From assembly GCF_000019345.1 (NCBI RefSeq), contig NC_010503.1, forward strand, positions 630,001 to 662,000: a stretch of DNA of 32,000 nt, read 5' to 3'. The position numbers were made by a program, and so were the translations under genes. The first letter of the stretch is position 1. The number at the start of each line of letters is the position of its first letter. The notes beneath the pieces were generated by a model. It did no database searches. It worked only from the letters and a program-made list of their open reading frames with translations, and was not told the origin of the DNA. Origin of the DNA: Ureaplasma parvum serovar 3 str. ATCC 27815. GTDB lineage: Bacteria; Bacillota_I; Bacilli_A; Mycoplasmatales; Mycoplasmoidaceae. Shown in pieces: positions 21,747-28,734 of this stretch.

Positions 21747-23258
21747 TTATTTGCTTTTTGGTTCTCAATATAGTTGTTTTATGTAATCTTTTAGTGCTTT
21801 AGCTTGACCTTCTTTGCCTAATCCATAATAGCCTTTAGCGATTCCTGCTTCAAAACCACCATAAGATGAATTACCACCTATTAATACATAAGATTCTGAT
21901 CAAGTTTCATCAGATTTCACCATTTGACCGTTTTGATTTTTTTCGTATTTAACACCTTTATTATTTATATCAAAATTACCAAATAATTTACCATATTCTT
22001 TTAATAATGCTACACGTTCACTATTAAGTTTACCTTTTGAAGCATTATCATTAAAGTCATCAAAATTATCACCAATACGCATTACAGTTTTTAAAACTAC
22101 AGCATTACCACTACCGAATTCACTTAAATCATAACCTTGTGTACGCTTATTCATAGCATTCATACGGTCTTCTTTAGTAGATTTTACACGTTTTCCTTGT
22201 GCATCTTTTTTAATATTTGCTCATGGTTTATCGCTACTAAAATCTACTCCTTGCATTCAAAAAATTCATTTAGGTAATAAACTACGTTCTAAGCCTTCAC
22301 TAACCAAGTTTTCAATAGTTGGATCGACTTGGTTTTCTTGTTCACGGTTTGAGTTGAACATTACGACTCCACCATGTTCTCAAACATATTTAATGAATTC
22401 AAAAGCTCCAGCTAATCGTTTTGAAACCTTGTCATTCACAAATGCATCTCAATCCTTTGGATTATAAGCTTTATTATTTAATAATTGATAGTTTTGATTA
22501 GCGTAATTATTTAAAATTGTTTCATCAATATCCATAAATACTACAGGAATTGCCTTATTACTTTCAGGATTAGAAACTGTTACCTTTGTAATATTACCAT
22601 TTGAATCTTTTTCTACTTTTACTTTACTTGTATCAAAATCACTTTGTTTAATCATTGCATCAAATTGGTGTTTTGCACTATTATACTCTGTTAATAGCAT
22701 CCCATCTTTTTCAGCACTTAATGTGTTTCAAATATTAGCTAATCAACGTTGGTTGTAAATAATTGATTCTGCACTATTATATGATTTTATTTCATTTTTT
22801 TCATTACTATGACTTATTTGAACCTTTGGTCCATCATTTAATTCAATATTGCTTATATTTAGTGTTGTTACATAAACAGCACCTTTTTTTAAATTAGCAT
22901 CATCTGGTTTAATAATTACACGATCATCTTTTTTTGGTTCACGTGCTAATTTTACATAAACTCTACCATCCCTTAAAATCCCTGTAGATGATGTAAATTC
23001 AGCATTATTATCTTTATCAATAACACTAGTTTTAAAATTAAGATTTTGTAATGATTTTTTTTGGTTATCATCTAATTTAGTTCAATTTGTAATCTCATAA
23101 ATTGCATAAACACCATTTTGAGTTCTAACAAAAGATGAACTTACAGTTGATTCGATATTAGAGTTAGTACAAGCAGTAGCTGTAGCAATAATACTTGTAC
23201 TAACTATTATTGAACCTAATGATATAGCTCAAAATTTCTTATTTTTCAATAATTTCAT
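21747..23258 (-). CDS. Lipoprotein, HAD-superfamily class B / e(P4)-type acid phosphatase (5'-nucleotidase) with a ~200-aa N-terminal extension, 503 aa
   Basis: MKLLKNKKFWAISLGSIIVSTSIIATATA-C (lipobox). VVFMDIDETILNN (DxDxT nucleophile motif) and MRIGDNFDDF (GDxxxDF). Pieces 21900-22163 and 22449-22700 are in frame with ATG 23258. Stop is TAA 21747-21749. Confidence 0.8.
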
Positions 23259-23468: not shown

Positions 23469-26384
23469 CTATTCTACATCTCAATCTTCATTAAATAAAG
23501 CAATTGATAATACCAACGCAATAGCTTGAGTTCGTTTTTTAATTTGTTCTGGTTGAAGTTCTTCTTTATCACTTAATTTTAAACTCATAAGTGCTTCTTT
23601 AAATACATCTTCATTAACATCAATTTTATTAGATTTTAACTTTTCATTTATTTTTGTGAATTCATTGTAAAGTTTTGTTATTTGTTCCTCATTTAATCCT
23701 TTGTATAATCAAAGATTTTGAATGATAGGTGCATTTTTATAACGTTGTTTTTTATCTTTAAATTCTTTATTATTAAGAGCTGAGTTGTATTCTTTAGTAA
23801 GTGGTATTAAATTACCAATATTATTTTTAACAATATTAAATCTTTCATCTTTTAATGATTGTGAATACATGTGTTCAATTGTTAAATCTGCTTTTTCATT
23901 ATCAGCATTACTTGGTGGATAAAAAAATACTTTTGTATCCTTATTTTTATTTATTTGCGTATCATCAAGAAAAAAAGTTAAATAAGTTTCAAATCTAATT
24001 AAATAAGCCAAATGAATATCACTAACCTTTTCATCAAGCATTTTGTTATAAAAATTTTTAATATTTTTTATTTCCATTTGATTATTGCTATTAAAAACAT
24101 CTAAAAATTTTTTTGATAAATTAATATTTTTAATGGAATTTATATTGTTTTTGTTAATATCATTATCAATTAACTTAATTAATTTAATAACACTATTTAA
24201 AATACTTTGACCACGAGTATTTAATAAAACATTTCTCAATGAAAAATTAGCAATCACGCTAACATATTCTTCAATATTAATTCTTAATTTGCTTTTATCA
24301 AAATTACCATTGTTATCAAAATCATACAATACATCCTCAGTAAATATTTTCTCTAATAAATAAACTAATAAAGGAATATAATTCTTTTTCTTTTTGTTCG
24401 TTAAGATTAGTAAATAATCACTAATTAAATAAAAATTACAATTATTGTTTGTGAATTTATCTTTGATTGTTAAGTCATTGTAAATATCTATATATTTACT
24501 AAAATATTTCAAACACGCTTTTCAATTATTTTTTAAAGTAAATTTTTTATTAATAATTTCAATAATAAAAAATCAACTTTTATTATAATATTCATCATCT
24601 TTATCGTTTTTTTCAAATCTTTTTAAATCCTCATCTTTACAAAGATTTAAAGCACTTAATGAATCAACAAATTCGTTAAAACGTTTTACTTCAATAATAT
24701 TTTCATCTTTTTTTAATAAAAATTTTTTCGTTATTAAATCATTATATTTCTGTTGGAATTCTTCTTTATTTTTAAAAATTGATTCTTTAAAATTTTCATA
24801 TCAACAAAACTTATTTTTTAACAATTCAATAGCGTTAAGTTTTTTAGCATTAGTATTTAATGATTCAAAAGTTTTAAATTCATCAACATTTTTTAAAATA
24901 ACTAAATTGAGGATTAAATTATTAAATAAGGCGTTAGCAAAATTCGCTCATTCTTTAAATTCTTTTGGTTTTTCTTCAAATCATTCAACAATATCTTTTA
25001 GATTCATAAAAATATGATTGTTTTTATTATCTAATTCATCATTAGATAATATTTGTTTTAAAGCTTCATAGTCAGGATTGCCACCAATACGACTAAAGCG
25101 ATCAATTATAAACTCTCTGTTAAAAAAGATATCTTTTAAATGACTTAGTTGCTTTATTTGTTCGTTTGTAAATTTTGTTATTTCTTCTCTGTTGTTATAC
25201 AAGAAAATAATAAATGCTTTTGTAATTAAAAATAAGGTTGTTAATCGTTGTTGACCATCAATAATTTGAATATTATCAATAGATTCTTCTTTAACTAAGA
25301 CACTAATGATACTACCTAAAAAATGGTTTTCATTATTTTGTTTGTTACTAATATCATTAATATCTTCTAGCAATTTTTCAATATTATCAATTGTTCAAAC
25401 ATAATTACGTTGAAAAACTGGAATACTCATTTTAATTGTTTCATTCTTGTTTAAAAATTTAATCAATCATACTAAATTAAAAATATAAGCATCACCATTA
25501 TCTGAAGCCAACTTCTTTGTACCATCTAATTTAGTCACTTCAATAGAATTGTCATTTGAAATTAATGGTAATTTTCAATTAGTAACTAATTCACACGAAT
25601 CACTATATTCTTCAAAATTAAATTTTTTATTATCTTTTTCTTGTTGAGTTTTCGCTGTTCTTAAAAAATCTGGTTTATTTTTAGTTTTATTTATATTAGT
25701 TTGATTGTTTGGATTTGCTTTATTTTCATCATTAGTTTTTGCTCAATAGTTTTCAAATTTGGTAATTAATTCATTAGAAATTATTTGATCTTTAAAATAA
25801 TTTTCAACAAATTCTTTATATTGTTTAAAATGCTTAAAATTGCTATCATTTTGCTTAGGTTCATAGTAGTATTCAAATAATTCTTTTTTAGTTAAATAAT
25901 CATTGTGTTTTTTATAATGTAGTAATGATAAGAAAATAGTTAAAACAAAATCTTTATTTTTTTGATCTATTGTTTCATTTTGAAAAAAATCATTTAAATC
26001 TAAATTTCTTAAAAATTTATTAACAAAAACATTTGTGATGTGTTTATTGATGCTTTTTTCGGTGTTATCTGATACATTAAAAGTAAATATATAATCTTTA
26101 AGAGTGTCATTTTTGTATGTATTAATTGTTTTATTTTTATCACTATCTACAATAATTTGTAAATAATAAAGAACACGTATTAATTCATAAGATGAACGTT
26201 TAAAACTAAATTCAACTTTTTTTTGATTTTTATCATTAATTAAAATTTTTCATTCTTGATCATTAGTATCAAGGTGTAATTTCTCATTCGAAAAAATCTT
26301 TTTAACATTATTTTCATTGCAGATCAAATATTTAATAAATGTATTAATACTTGTACTTATTTTTCAAAACTTTAATTTAGCCAT
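23469..26384 (-). CDS. DUF262 + DUF1524 (GmrSD/SspE-type) nuclease-family protein with an unassigned ~320-aa N-terminal region, 971 aa
   Basis: Hand-translated end to end from ATG 26384 to TAG 23469-23471; the only interruptions are TGA codons. DUF262 motifs IPVFQRNYVW and IIDGQQRLTTLFLI. DUF1524/His-Me finger LTIEHMYSQS...NIGNLIPLTKEYNSALNNKEFKDKK. The start lies 3 nt after the methyltransferase stop. Confidence 0.85.
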
Positions 26385-26387
26385 AAA

Positions 26388-27635
26388 TTATTTATTAAAT
26401 CTTTCTTGAATTAATTTCATTAAATAAACCATTACATCAACAACAATTGAATTTCCAGCTTGTTGATACATTTTAGCTTTTGATATTCCCTTAGCTTGAA
26501 TCGCTTCAAAATCTTTTTCATTAAAGCCCATTAATAGATAGGCTTCACGATTTGTTAATAAACGAAAGTTTGCTTTTTTAGGTAAATTATTGTGATCTTT
26601 TTCACGATAATCATCACCTAAAATCGTATTTTTTAAATTGATATAACCACCATTAGGAAAACGATCTTGACGTGTTGTAATTGTTGAAGTACAATAACAA
26701 TTAGGATTTAATAAATCATATTTTGGAATGACATATTTTATTCTTGAAAATGTGCGATTTGGTTGAGCTAAATATGCTTCTTGATAATATTTTTCAATTT
26801 TATAATTAGTTTTTAAAACATCCTTTAATTGTTTTTGTTTTCCATCAAAAATAGGTGCTTCTAAATCTAAAATATTTCCATTACTATCAATTAATCCATC
26901 ATAGTTTAGAATCGAAATTGCATATACTCGTTTACGACGTTGTGCTGACCCATAATCAAGAGCGTTTAATTGAAAAGTACATGTACTATAACCTAATTGT
27001 TTTAAAGATTTGGTTCACATATCATAATCTAGCTTATGTTGTTTAGATAACATGTTATTAACGTTTTCTAATAAAAGAAATTGTGGTAATTGATTTAATT
27101 TTTGCAAATCGAATAAAATGCGTTCAATTTCTCATAGTAATCCAGAACGTGTACCGGATCCTTTTTTCATTCCAAAAGCTTTTTTACTAAAGCTTCCAGC
27201 TGTTGATAAGTCTTGACAAGGGAATGAATAAGTAAGTAAATCTATCCCTTTGTTCCCAACACTTTTTATTAACTGCTCACCAGTCACACTTAAAATACTT
27301 CCTAAATTATTAGAATTAAGATATGCATCATATAATTCACGTTTAATATTTTCGCTAAAAGAACTAATTTTTTTACGAATTGGGTCTTTACCATTTGATG
27401 AGTGATTAAATTTTTCTAAATAATTATCAATTCTATTAATATCAATATTTAAATTAATTTTTTTATGTGGATAATGAATTGTGTTATAAGAAATATTTGC
27501 ATAAATATCTCATTCGCTTGTAGCAACAATTTTGTAGTCAAAGCCAAATTGTTTTTTTACAATTTCTAAAGCACGATGTTGTGCTCCAATTCCAGAAAAA
27601 GTTTCAAATACTCTTAAAACCTTAGTTTTATCTAT
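26388..27635 (-). CDS. DNA (cytosine-5)-methyltransferase, ~415 aa, intact body but without a canonical start codon in the present DNA orientation
   Basis: Hand-translated with no TAA/TAG and 3 TGA-Trp. Motif I FETFSGIGAQ, IV SFPCQDLS, GSGTRSGLLWEIER, VI LLENV, VIII QRRKRVY, IX RLLTNREAYLLMGF, X GNSIVV. Upstream in frame: TAA (27641-27639), AAC, ATA, then GAT AAA ACT AAG GTT. The nearest ATG (27645) is out of frame and stops after 5 codons. Confidence 0.85.
27616..27633. repeat. Left arm of the 18-bp perfect inverted repeat (aaaaccttagttttatct), inside codons 2-8 of the methyltransferase ORF
   Basis: Exact reverse complement of 27757-27774, checked base by base. The match stops at both flanks. 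Confidence 0.95.
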
Positions 27636-27739
27636 GTTTTAACATTGAAATTATTTAAAAATGCTAAAATTAAATAATAATTGATGTTTTTGTATTAATT
27701 TCGTACGAATAAATTATTTAGAACAAAATGTGGACATTT

Positions 27740-27790
27740 ATGAGCAAAAATAAAGCAGATAAAACTAAGGTTTTCTCTATTTTTTTGTAA
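27740..27790 (+). other. Displaced 5' cassette of the methyltransferase gene (ATG + MSKNKADKTKV), currently fused to a 5-codon nonsense tail (FSIFL*)
   Basis: atg agc aaa aat aaa gca gat aaa act aag gtt ttc tct att ttt ttg taa. Codons 7-11 (DKTKV) are the IR itself, read in the same frame as in the methyltransferase body. Confidence 0.7.
27757..27774. repeat. Right arm of the 18-bp perfect inverted repeat (agataaaactaaggtttt)
   Basis: Exact reverse complement of 27616-27633. It lies inside a 16-codon plus-strand ORF beginning ATG AGC AAA AAT AAA GCA. Confidence 0.95.
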
Positions 27791-27849
27791 TTTAAATTAA
27801 TATAATTTTAAAAATCCTATTGTTTTTTATATATTTATAATTTTTACAT

Positions 27850-28605
27850 ATGAAAAAATTTATAAATTATTTAAAAAATGTAAAAGGATATAGTGATGGT
27901 ACAATTGCTATTTATCAAAAATATGTTAAAGTACTAATTGATAATAATTTAGATTATTTAAAAGCTATTAAAAAATATGAACATAACGCTAATGTTACTA
28001 AGCGCGTTGTTTTAAGTGCTTTTAAAGCATATTTAAAATTTATTAATCATAAAGATGCTATATTGATTGTTATGCCTAAAAAAGAAATTAAAGTAAAAGA
28101 ATTTTTGACTTGAGATAATTTTTTAAAAATTATTAATAATATTAATCAAGCTACCTTTTTAGGTTTTCAGAAATATTTAATTTTAAGAATTTTATTTGAA
28201 ACAGGCATTCGATCTTGTGAATTATTAAAACTAGAAATTAAAGATATTTATGAAAATAAGTTAAAAATTCATGGCAAAGGCAAAAAAGAACGCTTTGTTT
28301 ATTTATCAAACGATTTACAAAATAATATTAAAAAATATATTGGTCAAATTAAAACAAAATATTTATTTAATTTTAGTTATAAAAATTTGTATCAAAAAGT
28401 TACTAGAATTAAAACTAATATTAGGCTAACGCCTCATATTTTACGTCGTAGTTTTGCTAACCATTGCATTAATAATGGTATTAATATTTATGATTTATCA
28501 TTAGTTATGGGTCATAACAATATTAATTCAACAAGTTTATATTTAAATAAGGAAAGTAAATTAGTAGAATTAGATCATCTTTTTGATAATAAAAAAGTTA
28601 ATTAA
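27850..28605 (+). CDS. Tyrosine site-specific recombinase (XerC/D / phage-integrase family), 251 aa
   Basis: Pieces 27850-28113 and 28387-28605 are in frame (one TGA-Trp). Catalytic residues in order: ETGIRSCEL (Arg), HGKGKKER (Lys), TPHILRRSFA (HxxR), MGHNNINSTSLYL (His...Tyr). Confidence 0.85.
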
Positions 28606-28734
28606 TTTTATAAATATATAAAATAAAAAATCTACTTCAGTTTTGCACTAAAGTAGATAATATAATTCAATTCTAAATACCAACAAAAAACTAAATTAAA
28701 AATAAACTTTTTTTAGTTTTTGTTAATTAATGTC

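What the first reader, a model, noticed from the sequence alone, without database searches (positions are those of the whole stretch)
26388..27645. Intact C5 methyltransferase body with all catalytic motifs but no usable start codon in the sequenced configuration
The 415-codon frame contains motifs I, IV (PCQ), VI (ENV), VIII (QxRxR), IX and X (GNS) with no TAA/TAG. This is not how a decaying pseudogene looks in a genome this AT-rich.

The frame opens only at TAA 27641-27639. The only nearby ATG (27645) is in another frame and terminates after 5 codons (ATG TTA AAA CAT AGA TAA). So the gene is silenced at initiation rather than destroyed.

Several blocks (KxxRVFExFxGIGAQ, LLTYSFPCQDLS, GSGTRSGLLWEIER) resemble what I recall of the mollicute CpG methyltransferase M.SssI and its relatives. 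The target-recognition region (about aa 225-345) cannot be assigned by eye, so the specificity is unknown.
Basis: partly seen in the sequence, partly recalled or inferred. Interest (0 to 1): 0.6.

Follow-up and report, generated by a model that had tools for sequence, protein, structure and literature searches.

The report
Flip-switch-silenced DNA methylase gene
This Ureaplasma parvum cytosine DNA-methylase gene is intact but lacks a start because its start codon sits on a 123-base flippable DNA piece that points the wrong way here; other strains carry it flipped on, and the neighbouring recombinase (CodV, function until now unclear) probably does the flipping.

Summary
The minus-strand frame 27638-26388 encodes a complete C5 DNA methyltransferase. 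It is opened by TAA 27641-27639 and has no in-frame ATG, GTG or TTG near its N-terminus.

The cause is a DNA-inversion switch, not decay, sequencing error or an ATA start.
- A perfect 18-bp inverted repeat (27616-27633 and 27757-27774) brackets a 123-bp core (27634-27756).
- The core carries ATG plus five codons at 27740-27756, now on the + strand and facing the recombinase gene codV (27850-28605). This is the OFF state.
- Inverting the core in silico reproduces, base for base, the 420-aa ON allele (MSKNKADKTKV...) found on 19 public contigs.
- ON and OFF loci are identical over up to 12.7 kb apart from orientation.

At least three other mollicute genomes hold methyltransferases of this family behind analogous start-bearing inverted-repeat cassettes. 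All three are assembled OFF.

Specificity is unknown. The CpG-reading loops of M.MpeI are not conserved, and genomic CpG is not depleted.

No paper in the searchable library describes this switch. The 2013 CodV study never tested these repeats.

This scan had already noted this inverton, and a similar C5-methylase inverton on other DNA.

The parts
26388..27633 (-). Fixed body of the C5 DNA methyltransferase gene, from the third base of codon 6 to the stop codon. It corresponds to UU528, inferred from its position next to UU529.
   Evidence: PF00145 2e-47 and TIGR00675 above cut-off. All catalytic motifs lie on family-invariant columns. Best PDB match is M.MpeI, 6e-42.
27616..27633 (.). Gene-proximal arm of the perfect 18-bp inverted repeat. 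It lies inside the coding sequence and encodes the D-K-T-K-V stretch.
   Evidence: Exact reverse complement of 27757-27774, and these are the only two copies in the 751,679-bp genome even with one mismatch allowed.
27634..27756 (.). 123-bp invertible core, here in the OFF orientation.
   Evidence: In-silico inversion gives 0 mismatches in 341 nt to the natural ON locus L021. The core sequence is conserved in 28 loci, with one SNP in one strain.
27740..27756 (+). Displaced start of the methylase: ATG, four more codons and two bases of codon 6 (M-S-K-N-K-A). It currently reads toward codV.
   Evidence: After inversion it fuses in frame to give MSKNKADKTKVLRVFETF, identical to protein P0123 found on 19 contigs.
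27740..27790 (+). 16-codon mini-ORF (MSKNKADKTKVFSIFL) formed by the displaced start in the OFF state. Probably a by-product.
   Evidence: Translation.
27662..27670 (+). Candidate extended -10 promoter element (TGnTAAAAT) on the cassette, about 70 nt upstream of the mobile ATG and in the same orientation. TTGAAA lies at 27645-27650.
   Evidence: Read directly from the sequence. The consensus scan was not above shuffled controls in this AT-rich DNA, so this is an inference.
27757..27774 (.). Distal arm of the 18-bp inverted repeat, 75 nt upstream of the codV ATG.
27850..28605 (+). Tyrosine recombinase (CodV/UU529 type, 251 aa), divergent from the methylase. It is the candidate invertase.
   Evidence: PF00589 4e-21 and XerA-type NF040815 2e-39. 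The R..K..HxxR..H..Y residues are present, and the best PDB match is XerA 4a8e at 1e-19. Identified as CodV through PMC3599477.
23469..26384 (-). 971-aa GmrSD-type (DUF262 + DUF1524) protein. Its ATG is 3 nt after the methylase stop, so it is probably co-transcribed and under the same switch.
   Evidence: GmrSD_N 2e-30 and GmrSD_C 1e-12. PADLOC matches HEC-06, Orf5 and SspE-like models. The same kind of neighbour recurs beside related methylases in L003, L042, L069 and L079.

Best explanation
The methyltransferase gene is the fixed part of a binary DNA-inversion (phase-variation) switch, caught in the OFF state.

**Shown**
- A 123-bp cassette (27634-27756), bounded by perfect 18-bp inverted repeats, carries the gene's ATG and first five codons.
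- In this genome the cassette points at the neighbouring recombinase gene. The methylase body therefore begins right after a stop codon, with no usable start.
- Recombination between the two repeats would flip the cassette. That would join ATG-AGC-AAA-AAT-AAA-GC to A-GAT-AAA-ACT..., giving a 420-aa enzyme.
- Both orientations exist among otherwise identical strains.

**Inferred**
- The cassette also carries the leader and most likely the promoter.
- Flipping ON would probably also drive the GmrSD-type gene 3 nt downstream.
- The adjacent tyrosine recombinase CodV is the invertase.
- Switching is reversible and happens within populations. This would make cytosine methylation, and perhaps a linked defence function, phase-variable.
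For: 1. **Exact inversion.** Inverting the core in silico reproduces the natural ON locus L021 exactly: 0 mismatches in 341 nt, and 4 in 6001 nt over the wider region.
2. **ON allele in nature.** The ON protein P0123 (420 aa, MSKNKADKTKV...) is on 19 public contigs from NCBI, ENA and Logan. OFF-type calls (299 aa and 415 aa) are in 61 or more index blocks. Gene order is the same in both.
3. **Near-identical flanks.**
   - Flanks show only 4 variable sites in 3.9 kb across 14 loci.
   - Some ON/OFF pairs show 0 differences over up to 12.7 kb.
   - The two long ON loci differ from each other by 6 sites, but from some OFF loci by only 2-4.
4. **Two sites only.** The repeat occurs exactly twice in the genome.
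5. **Intact recombinase next door.** A catalytically complete tyrosine recombinase starts 75 nt from the distal repeat.
6. **Same design elsewhere.**
   - L002 has a divergent integrase, an 18-nt repeat and a 171-bp core. Inversion creates a GAGGG Shine-Dalgarno (ribosome-binding) sequence plus ATG, giving MAVDKNKDLS...
   - L018 has a 17-nt repeat and a 112-bp core.
   - L020 has a 20-nt repeat and a 90-bp core.
   - In all three, in-silico inversion creates a -10-like element or ribosome-binding site plus an in-frame ATG.
7. **Shared site motif.** The repeats of the window and of L002, the two cases with an adjacent recombinase, share the 9-mer AGATAAAAC.
8. **N-terminus fits.** The ON N-terminus matches the length and character of relatives' N-termini.
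Against: - Both orientations were seen only between strains or samples, never inside one culture.
- **CodV dependence is inferred from adjacency only.**
   - The one experimental study found CodV binding to a putative dif site that does not resemble this repeat.
   - In two analogous switches (G002, G052) no recombinase is adjacent, so a trans-acting Xer-type enzyme could do the job here too.
- **The promoter is not established.** The consensus scan did not exceed shuffled controls.
- **A perfect 16-18-nt inverted repeat alone is weak evidence.** The genome has 7 such pairs, and random genomes gave 3-7 seeds.
- **OFF strongly predominates among assemblies.** That would also fit a rare, slow rearrangement.
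Confidence: 0.88

Rival explanations
1. The gene is expressed as it stands from the non-canonical start ATA 27635, a permitted table-4 initiator. This gives the 415-aa protein that public annotation lists, so the missing ATG has no consequence.
For: - ATA is the second codon after the opening stop.
- Public records carry a 415-aa product beginning M-DKTK (P0124).
Against: - A canonical ATG allele arises by exact inversion and is common in nature.
- No ribosome-binding site or convincing promoter faces the gene in the OFF orientation.
- Gene callers disagree on the OFF start, giving products of 415, 315, 299 and 260 aa. That disagreement is typical of a frame without a real start.
- Three other genomes show the same ATG-less state next to an inverted-repeat cassette.
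Confidence: 0.05
2. The gene is a frameshift pseudogene, or the sequence has a homopolymer error. The original start would be ATG 27645, and one extra A in the AAAA run 27640-27637 threw it out of frame. Removing one A would give M-L-N-I-D-K-T-K.
For: - Deleting one A does put ATG 27645 in frame, read.
- The resulting N-terminus would be about as long as that of M.MpeI.
Against: - No member of the 90%-identity cluster starts MLNIDK.
- The OFF sequence is identical at this point in 20 or more independent assemblies made with different technologies.
- The ATG in question is simply the far end of the cassette seen in reverse.
Confidence: 0.02
3. The two orientations are a fixed polymorphism from a single old or rare inversion, for example by homologous recombination between the repeats. 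On this view the locus is not an active, recombinase-driven switch, and OFF lineages are simply losing the gene.
For: - OFF is about three times commoner.
- Some strains show decay: a Gly-to-Arg change in motif I (P0002), a frameshifted methylase (P0129/P0131), and split GmrSD genes in L046 and L052.
- All ON loci fall in one of the two local haplotype groups.
Against: - 18 bp is very short for homologous recombination.
- The repeats stay perfect in every locus.
- A complete recombinase is retained beside the cassette.
- ON and OFF share identical multi-kb flanks, and ON loci are not each other's closest relatives.
- The same architecture has arisen or been kept in three other genomes from two further genera.
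Confidence: 0.07

Closest known systems
[quoted passage not shown] 2009, 2011, 2013; PMC3047005, PMC3599477)
   Same: The organism is the same. Short inverted repeats, one of them inside the 5' coding region, allow a site-specific inversion. That inversion moves a promoter and 5' gene end and so decides which reading frame is expressed.
   Different: - Those loci toggle between two alternative surface-protein genes and are inverted by XerC (UU222).
- Their repeats (core TTATCAAACAG) do not resemble the repeat here.
- This switch turns one enzyme gene simply on or off, sits beside a different recombinase (CodV/UU529), and is not mentioned in those papers.
Phase-variable CpG methyltransferases of mycoplasmas (M. 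agalactiae poly(G); M. pulmonis and M. crocodyli poly(GA); PMC9465063, citing Wojciechowski 2013)
   Same: The enzyme family is the same (M.SssI/M.MpeI-like C5 methylases of Mollicutes), and so is the outcome: stochastic ON/OFF of cytosine methylation. A same-genus relative (L003) has a (GA)n tract between an upstream ATG and the methylase frame.
   Different: Those switches work by slipped-strand frameshifting in a repeat tract, with no recombinase or inverted repeats. CpG specificity is shown for those enzymes but is not supported here.
Mycoplasma pulmonis hsd1 inversion-regulated restriction-modification (Dybvig & Yu 1994, cited in PMC13736764 and PMC9881135) and type I hsdS 'epigenetic invertons'
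   Same: A mollicute restriction-modification function is controlled by site-specific DNA inversion.
   Different: Those inversions shuffle hsdS specificity domains of type I systems. Here a 123-bp cassette supplies or removes the start of a type II-like C5 methylase.
E. coli fimS / FimB-FimE and 'partial intergenic invertons' (PMC10028968; PMC9881135)
   Same: A short invertible element, bounded by short inverted repeats next to a tyrosine recombinase gene, gives binary ON/OFF control. The element overlaps the 5' end of the regulated gene, which is what 'partial intergenic' means.
   Different: fimS carries only the promoter, whereas here the start codon and five codons move as well. The 18-bp repeat is below the 22-bp threshold of the 2023 systematic screen, so that screen would have missed it.

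Membership tests
C5 cytosine DNA methyltransferase (PF00145 / TIGR00675) | Profile score above the curated cut-offs | tested here: met
   PF00145 scores 162.5 bits against 22. TIGR00675 scores 130.5 against 100.65.
C5 cytosine DNA methyltransferase (PF00145 / TIGR00675) | Catalytic and AdoMet motifs: I (FxGxG), IV (PCQ), VI (ENV), VIII (QxRxR), X (GNS) | tested here: met
   FSGIGAQ, FPCQ, LENV, QRRKR and AGNSI are all present. They lie on columns invariant in 21 relatives.
C5 cytosine DNA methyltransferase (PF00145 / TIGR00675) | Methyl transfer to cytosine C5 in DNA | not testable with these tools
   This needs a methylome or an enzyme assay of the ON form.
CpG-specific methyltransferases (M.SssI / M.MpeI) | Closest overall similarity to the solved CpG enzyme | tested here: met
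   M.MpeI is the best PDB hit: 6e-42 for the single sequence and 6e-82 for the family profile.
CpG-specific methyltransferases (M.SssI / M.MpeI) | Conservation of the CG-reading loops (Phe302, Ser304, Glu305; Gly322-Ala323-Asn324-Ser325-Arg326; PMC10899764) | tested here: not met
   The loop region aligns poorly, with blank match lines. The family has its own invariant TxTTxQDRxPNxG block instead.
CpG-specific methyltransferases (M.SssI / M.MpeI) | Genomic CpG depletion, as reported for hosts of CpG methylases | tested here: not met
   CpG observed/expected is 0.88 in this genome. M. agalactiae shows 0.46-0.5 (PMC9465063). This is weak evidence, because the gene is mostly OFF and lies in a block that the sister species lacks.
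Site-specific invertible switch (inverton) | Segment bounded by inverted repeats | tested here: met
   Perfect 18-bp arms at 27616-27633 and 27757-27774, with only two copies in the genome.
Site-specific invertible switch (inverton) | Both orientations exist in nature with breakpoints exactly at the repeats | tested here: met
   In-silico inversion matches the natural ON loci with 0 mismatches in 341 nt. There are 19 ON contigs and many OFF.
Site-specific invertible switch (inverton) | Both orientations coexist within one clonal population | not testable with these tools
Site-specific invertible switch (inverton) | A site-specific recombinase that performs the inversion | tested here: inconclusive
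   An intact tyrosine recombinase is adjacent, but its action on these repeats is untested. Published binding data concern other sites.
Site-specific invertible switch (inverton) | The segment carries the expression signal whose orientation decides expression | tested here: met
   The start codon and first five codons are on the cassette. The promoter on the cassette is inferred only.
Phasevarion (phase-variable methylase controlling a regulon) | Switch state changes genome methylation and thereby expression of other genes | not testable with these tools
   No methylome or transcriptome data were accessible.

The most novel reading that the evidence does not exclude
The cassette may be one example of an undescribed, recurrent design in Mollicutes and some relatives.
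- Very small invertons (90-171 bp) carry the start codon, or the promoter, of M.MpeI-family C5 methylases.
- These methylases are habitually paired with GmrSD-type (DUF262) nucleases, so the inverton gates a methylase-plus-nuclease defence or epigenetic module.
- In U. parvum, CodV would be the dedicated invertase rather than a chromosome-dimer resolvase.
- The cassette's promoter would drive the methylase operon in one orientation and codV in the other, making the switch self-regulating.
Probability: 0.35. Interest if true: 0.7.

Novelty: new member of a known kind. Interest (0 to 1): 0.58.

Why it matters
- **A phase-variable methylase in a human pathogen.** U. parvum is a human urogenital bacterium linked to chorioamnionitis and preterm birth. 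A reversible ON/OFF cytosine methylase could create epigenetically distinct subpopulations. Through its co-transcribed GmrSD-type partner, it could also vary the barrier to foreign DNA.
- **A candidate job for CodV.** The published dif-binding result for CodV (UU529) left its role open, given that the gene is missing from many strains (PMC3599477).
- **An annotation lesson.** Public records give this gene an ATA start or truncate it to 299 aa. The real start is 100 bases away on the other strand.
- **Likely overlooked elsewhere.** The same hidden-start design in other mollicute genomes suggests such switches are systematically missed. Their repeats are shorter than the thresholds of published screens.

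Tried and rejected
- **One-base frameshift in the AAAA run.** Considered first and rejected. No such allele exists in the cluster, and the inversion explains the ON form exactly.
- **Promoter scan.** The number of hits was no higher than in shuffled sequence.
- **Specificity from sequence.**
  - The M.MpeI recognition loops are not conserved.
  - CpG observed/expected is 0.88.
  - A palindrome-avoidance analysis gave no candidate site, and CGTACG from the cassette palindrome is not clearly avoided.
- **Tree test for repeated switching.** There are only 35 variable sites in 21 kb. ON loci are not monophyletic, but the signal rests on one or two sites.
- **CodV relatives.**
  - The nearest homologues (42-48% identity) sit next to mnmG like ordinary Xer genes and give no functional hint.
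  - The published CodV-bound difUP site does not resemble the repeat.
- **Other short inverted repeats.**
  - Other perfect 16-18-nt repeats in this genome are intragenic and look like chance.
  - The L042 repeat is a self-palindromic hairpin and was not counted.
- **U. parvum strains lacking the block.** An exact-protein look-up of the neighbouring PGM gene returned only block-bearing contigs.
- **Literature.** Searches for UU528, UU527, a Ureaplasma methylome, a Ureaplasma phasevarion or an invertible promoter found no description of this switch.

Full report
**What is in the sequence**

On the minus strand a frame opens after TAA 27641-27639 and runs to the stop at 26390-26388. It contains three TGA codons, read as Trp under table 4, and no TAA or TAG. 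The only common start codon in frame is GTG 27287, which would cut off motif I. ATG 27645 is out of frame and ends after five codons. ATA 27635 is the only table-4 start near the N-terminus.

The product is a complete C5 DNA methyltransferase.
- PF00145 scores 162.5 bits against a cut-off of 22, and TIGR00675 scores 130.5 against 100.65.
- FSGIGAQ, FPCQ, ENV, QRRKR and GNS lie on columns invariant across 21 relatives.
- The closest solved structure is the CpG methylase M.MpeI. The alignment starts at M.MpeI residue 4, so only about three to five N-terminal residues are missing.

**Where the window comes from**

The genome is a single 751,679-bp contig with 25% G+C. A neighbouring gene carries the Ureaplasma MBA N-terminal paralogue domain. 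[quoted passage not shown]

**Why the start is missing**

The 90%-identity cluster of this protein holds several versions.
- A 415-aa version annotated from ATA.
- Truncated versions of 299, 315 and 260 aa.
- A 420-aa version beginning MSKNKADKTKVLRVFETF.

Contigs encoding the 420-aa form have the same gene order and the same intergenic length as the window. Aligning them shows identity everywhere except a central block that is reverse-complemented.

A script then located a perfect 18-bp inverted repeat at 27616-27633 and 27757-27774 around a 123-bp core.
- Inverting the core in silico reproduces the natural ON locus, with 0 mismatches in 341 nt and 4 in 6001 nt.
- The mobile ATG is at 27740 on the + strand, pointing at codV.
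- Codon 6 (GCA) is split between the core and the repeat, and the repeat itself encodes D-K-T-K-V.
- In the OFF state the displaced start reads a 16-codon mini-ORF ending at 27790.
- The repeat occurs only twice in the genome, even with one mismatch allowed, so this is a two-state switch.

**Is it a switch or a one-off rearrangement?**

- All 28 loci examined keep perfect repeats and a conserved core, with one SNP in one strain.
- The ON form is on 19 contigs. The 299-aa OFF call alone is indexed in 61 blocks, including three complete NCBI genomes.
- Flanks are almost invariant, with 4 variable sites in 3.9 kb. Some ON/OFF pairs show no difference over up to 12.7 kb.
- The two long ON loci differ from each other by 6 sites but from some OFF loci by only 2-4.

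This indicates that orientation changes faster than point mutations accumulate, and probably changed more than once. The SNP signal is thin.

**The recombinase**

codV starts 75 nt beyond the distal repeat. It has the full R, K, HxxR, H, Y catalytic set and resembles XerA-type single recombinases.

The published study tested CodV on the mba and UU172 repeats, two candidate dif sites and a direct repeat.
- It found binding only to a candidate dif site, whose sequence does not resemble the repeat here.
- It noted that codV is missing from many strains and from U. urealyticum.
- It left open 'yet another unknown mechanism'.
- The methylase is not mentioned in that paper.

In the closest sister species in the collection (G272), the whole 4.95-kb block is absent between the conserved flanking genes, with DUF1410 ORFs in its place. 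The block comprises the nuclease, the methylase, the switch and codV, which fits a functional unit. CodV as the invertase remains an inference from adjacency, which I put at about 0.65.

**The same design elsewhere**

I scanned 49 loci from family- and class-wide genome searches.
- **L002** (another genus, methylase 54% identical) has a divergent integrase 42% identical to CodV, no ATG on the methylase frame, an 18-nt repeat with one mismatch, and a 171-bp core. Inverting the core creates GAGGG plus ATG, giving MAVDKNKDLS....
- **L018 and L020** (a third genus, methylases about 37% identical) have perfect 17- and 20-nt repeats around 112- and 90-bp cores. Inversion creates TATAAT plus an in-frame ATG. 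Their recombinases lie on other contigs.
- In all four cases the proximal repeat sits in the variable N-terminal tail just before the first strand of the fold, and all four reference assemblies are OFF.
- The window and L002 repeats share the 9-mer AGATAAAAC. My rough estimate of the chance probability is 0.004.
- **L069 and L079** have related promoter-type cassettes. In L069 the repeat contains the ATG itself.
- **L003**, a same-genus relative, instead has a (GA)n tract between an out-of-frame ATG and the methylase. This resembles the tract-based switches known for mycoplasma CpG methylases (PMC9465063).

**What the enzyme does**

Specificity cannot be assigned.
- The M.MpeI residues that read CG (PMC10899764) are not conserved, and the subfamily has its own invariant recognition block.
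- Genomic CpG is not depleted, at observed/expected 0.88.
- Palindrome statistics give no clue.

A 971-aa GmrSD-type gene starts 3 nt after the methylase stop. DUF262-type neighbours recur beside related methylases in four other loci. The switch therefore probably governs a two-gene methylase-nuclease module. How such a nuclease coexists with a methylase is unresolved, and it is the subject of a separate note of this scan.

**Comparison with what is known**

Inversion switches are well known, including in this organism (the mba and UU172 loci, inverted by XerC) and for restriction systems in M. pulmonis. Phase-variable methylases are also well known.

This instance falls in the class called 'partial intergenic invertons' (PMC10028968). 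Its 18-bp repeat is below the 22-bp filter of the 2023 systematic screen (PMC9881135).

No paper in the searchable library describes this locus. Subscription-only literature and REBASE could not be checked.

Earlier notes of this scan had already recorded the inverton on this window, and a similar C5-methylase inverton on other DNA. I tested the former independently.

**Verdict**

- The mechanism is a recombinase-type inversion switch in the OFF state, with confidence about 0.88.
- It is a new member of a known kind.
- Interest is moderate, for three reasons:
  - It gives the orphan recombinase CodV a likely function.
  - It corrects the public annotation of this gene.
  - It points to a recurrent, overlooked way of gating cytosine methylases in Mollicutes.

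Noticed in passing
L002:1294-1500 (G020, another genus of the same family): A second recombinase-adjacent switch. An 18-nt inverted repeat with one mismatch flanks a 171-bp core. The methylase frame has no ATG as assembled, and in-silico inversion gives GAGGG plus ATG (MAVDKNKDLS...). The repeat shares AGATAAAAC with the window's repeat.
   Followed up: yes
L018:2392-2537 (G002) and L020:2372-2501 (G052): Two more OFF-state methylase genes (about 37% identical to the window's). They have perfect 17- and 20-nt inverted repeats around 112- and 90-bp cores that hide TATAAT plus an in-frame ATG. The only integrase-family genes of these genomes are on other contigs.
   Followed up: yes
L003:1349-1500 (G051, same genus): The related methylase has no in-frame ATG. 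An upstream ATG-initiated ORF runs into a (GA)n tract just before the methylase frame, which suggests slipped-strand phase variation instead of inversion. The downstream gene is again GmrSD_N.
   Followed up: partly
L069 (G148) and L079 (G314): Promoter-type inverted-repeat cassettes (119 and 131 bp) lie directly upstream of related methylases. In L069 the repeat contains the ATG and the TATAAT faces away from the methylase. In L079 a TGnTATAAT faces the methylase. Neighbours are GmrSD_N genes and a PLD-ResIII helicase.
   Followed up: partly
window 23469-26384; L046 and L052: The 971-aa GmrSD-type gene is split into two ORFs in some strains of either switch state (569+412 aa in OFF L046; 764+202 aa in ON L052). 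Its loss is therefore not tied to the switch state.
   Followed up: partly
protein P0002 (a strain with a 734,075-bp contig); P0129/P0131 (one Logan contig): One strain has Gly-to-Arg in motif I (FSRIGAQ), which probably inactivates the enzyme. One sample has a frameshifted methylase. This is sporadic decay of the gene in some lineages.
   Followed up: no
window 27700-27709: The 10-bp palindrome TTCGTACGAA (two CpGs) sits in the middle of the cassette. One strain (L038/L046, GCA_002205595.1) has TTAGTACGAA. Its role is unknown. CGTACG is not clearly avoided in the genome (12 observed, 15.8 expected).
   Followed up: partly
window 23764-28715 versus L067 (G272:C1:731000-741600): The 4.95-kb block of nuclease, methylase, switch and codV is absent from the sister species. 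That species has about 2.7 kb with DUF1410 ORFs between the same flanking genes (acid-phosphatase/MBA paralogue and phosphoglucomutase).
   Followed up: partly
window 21747-23258: A 503-aa protein combines an MBA N-terminal paralogue domain (NF045871, 5e-43) with a class B acid phosphatase / e(P4) 5'-nucleotidase domain.
   Followed up: no
G000:C1:257055-257430, 677013-677257, 253819-253943: Three other perfect 17-18-nt inverted repeats with 91-340-nt spacers exist in the genome. All lie inside long ORFs, and their number is close to that in random sequence, so they are probably chance.
   Followed up: partly
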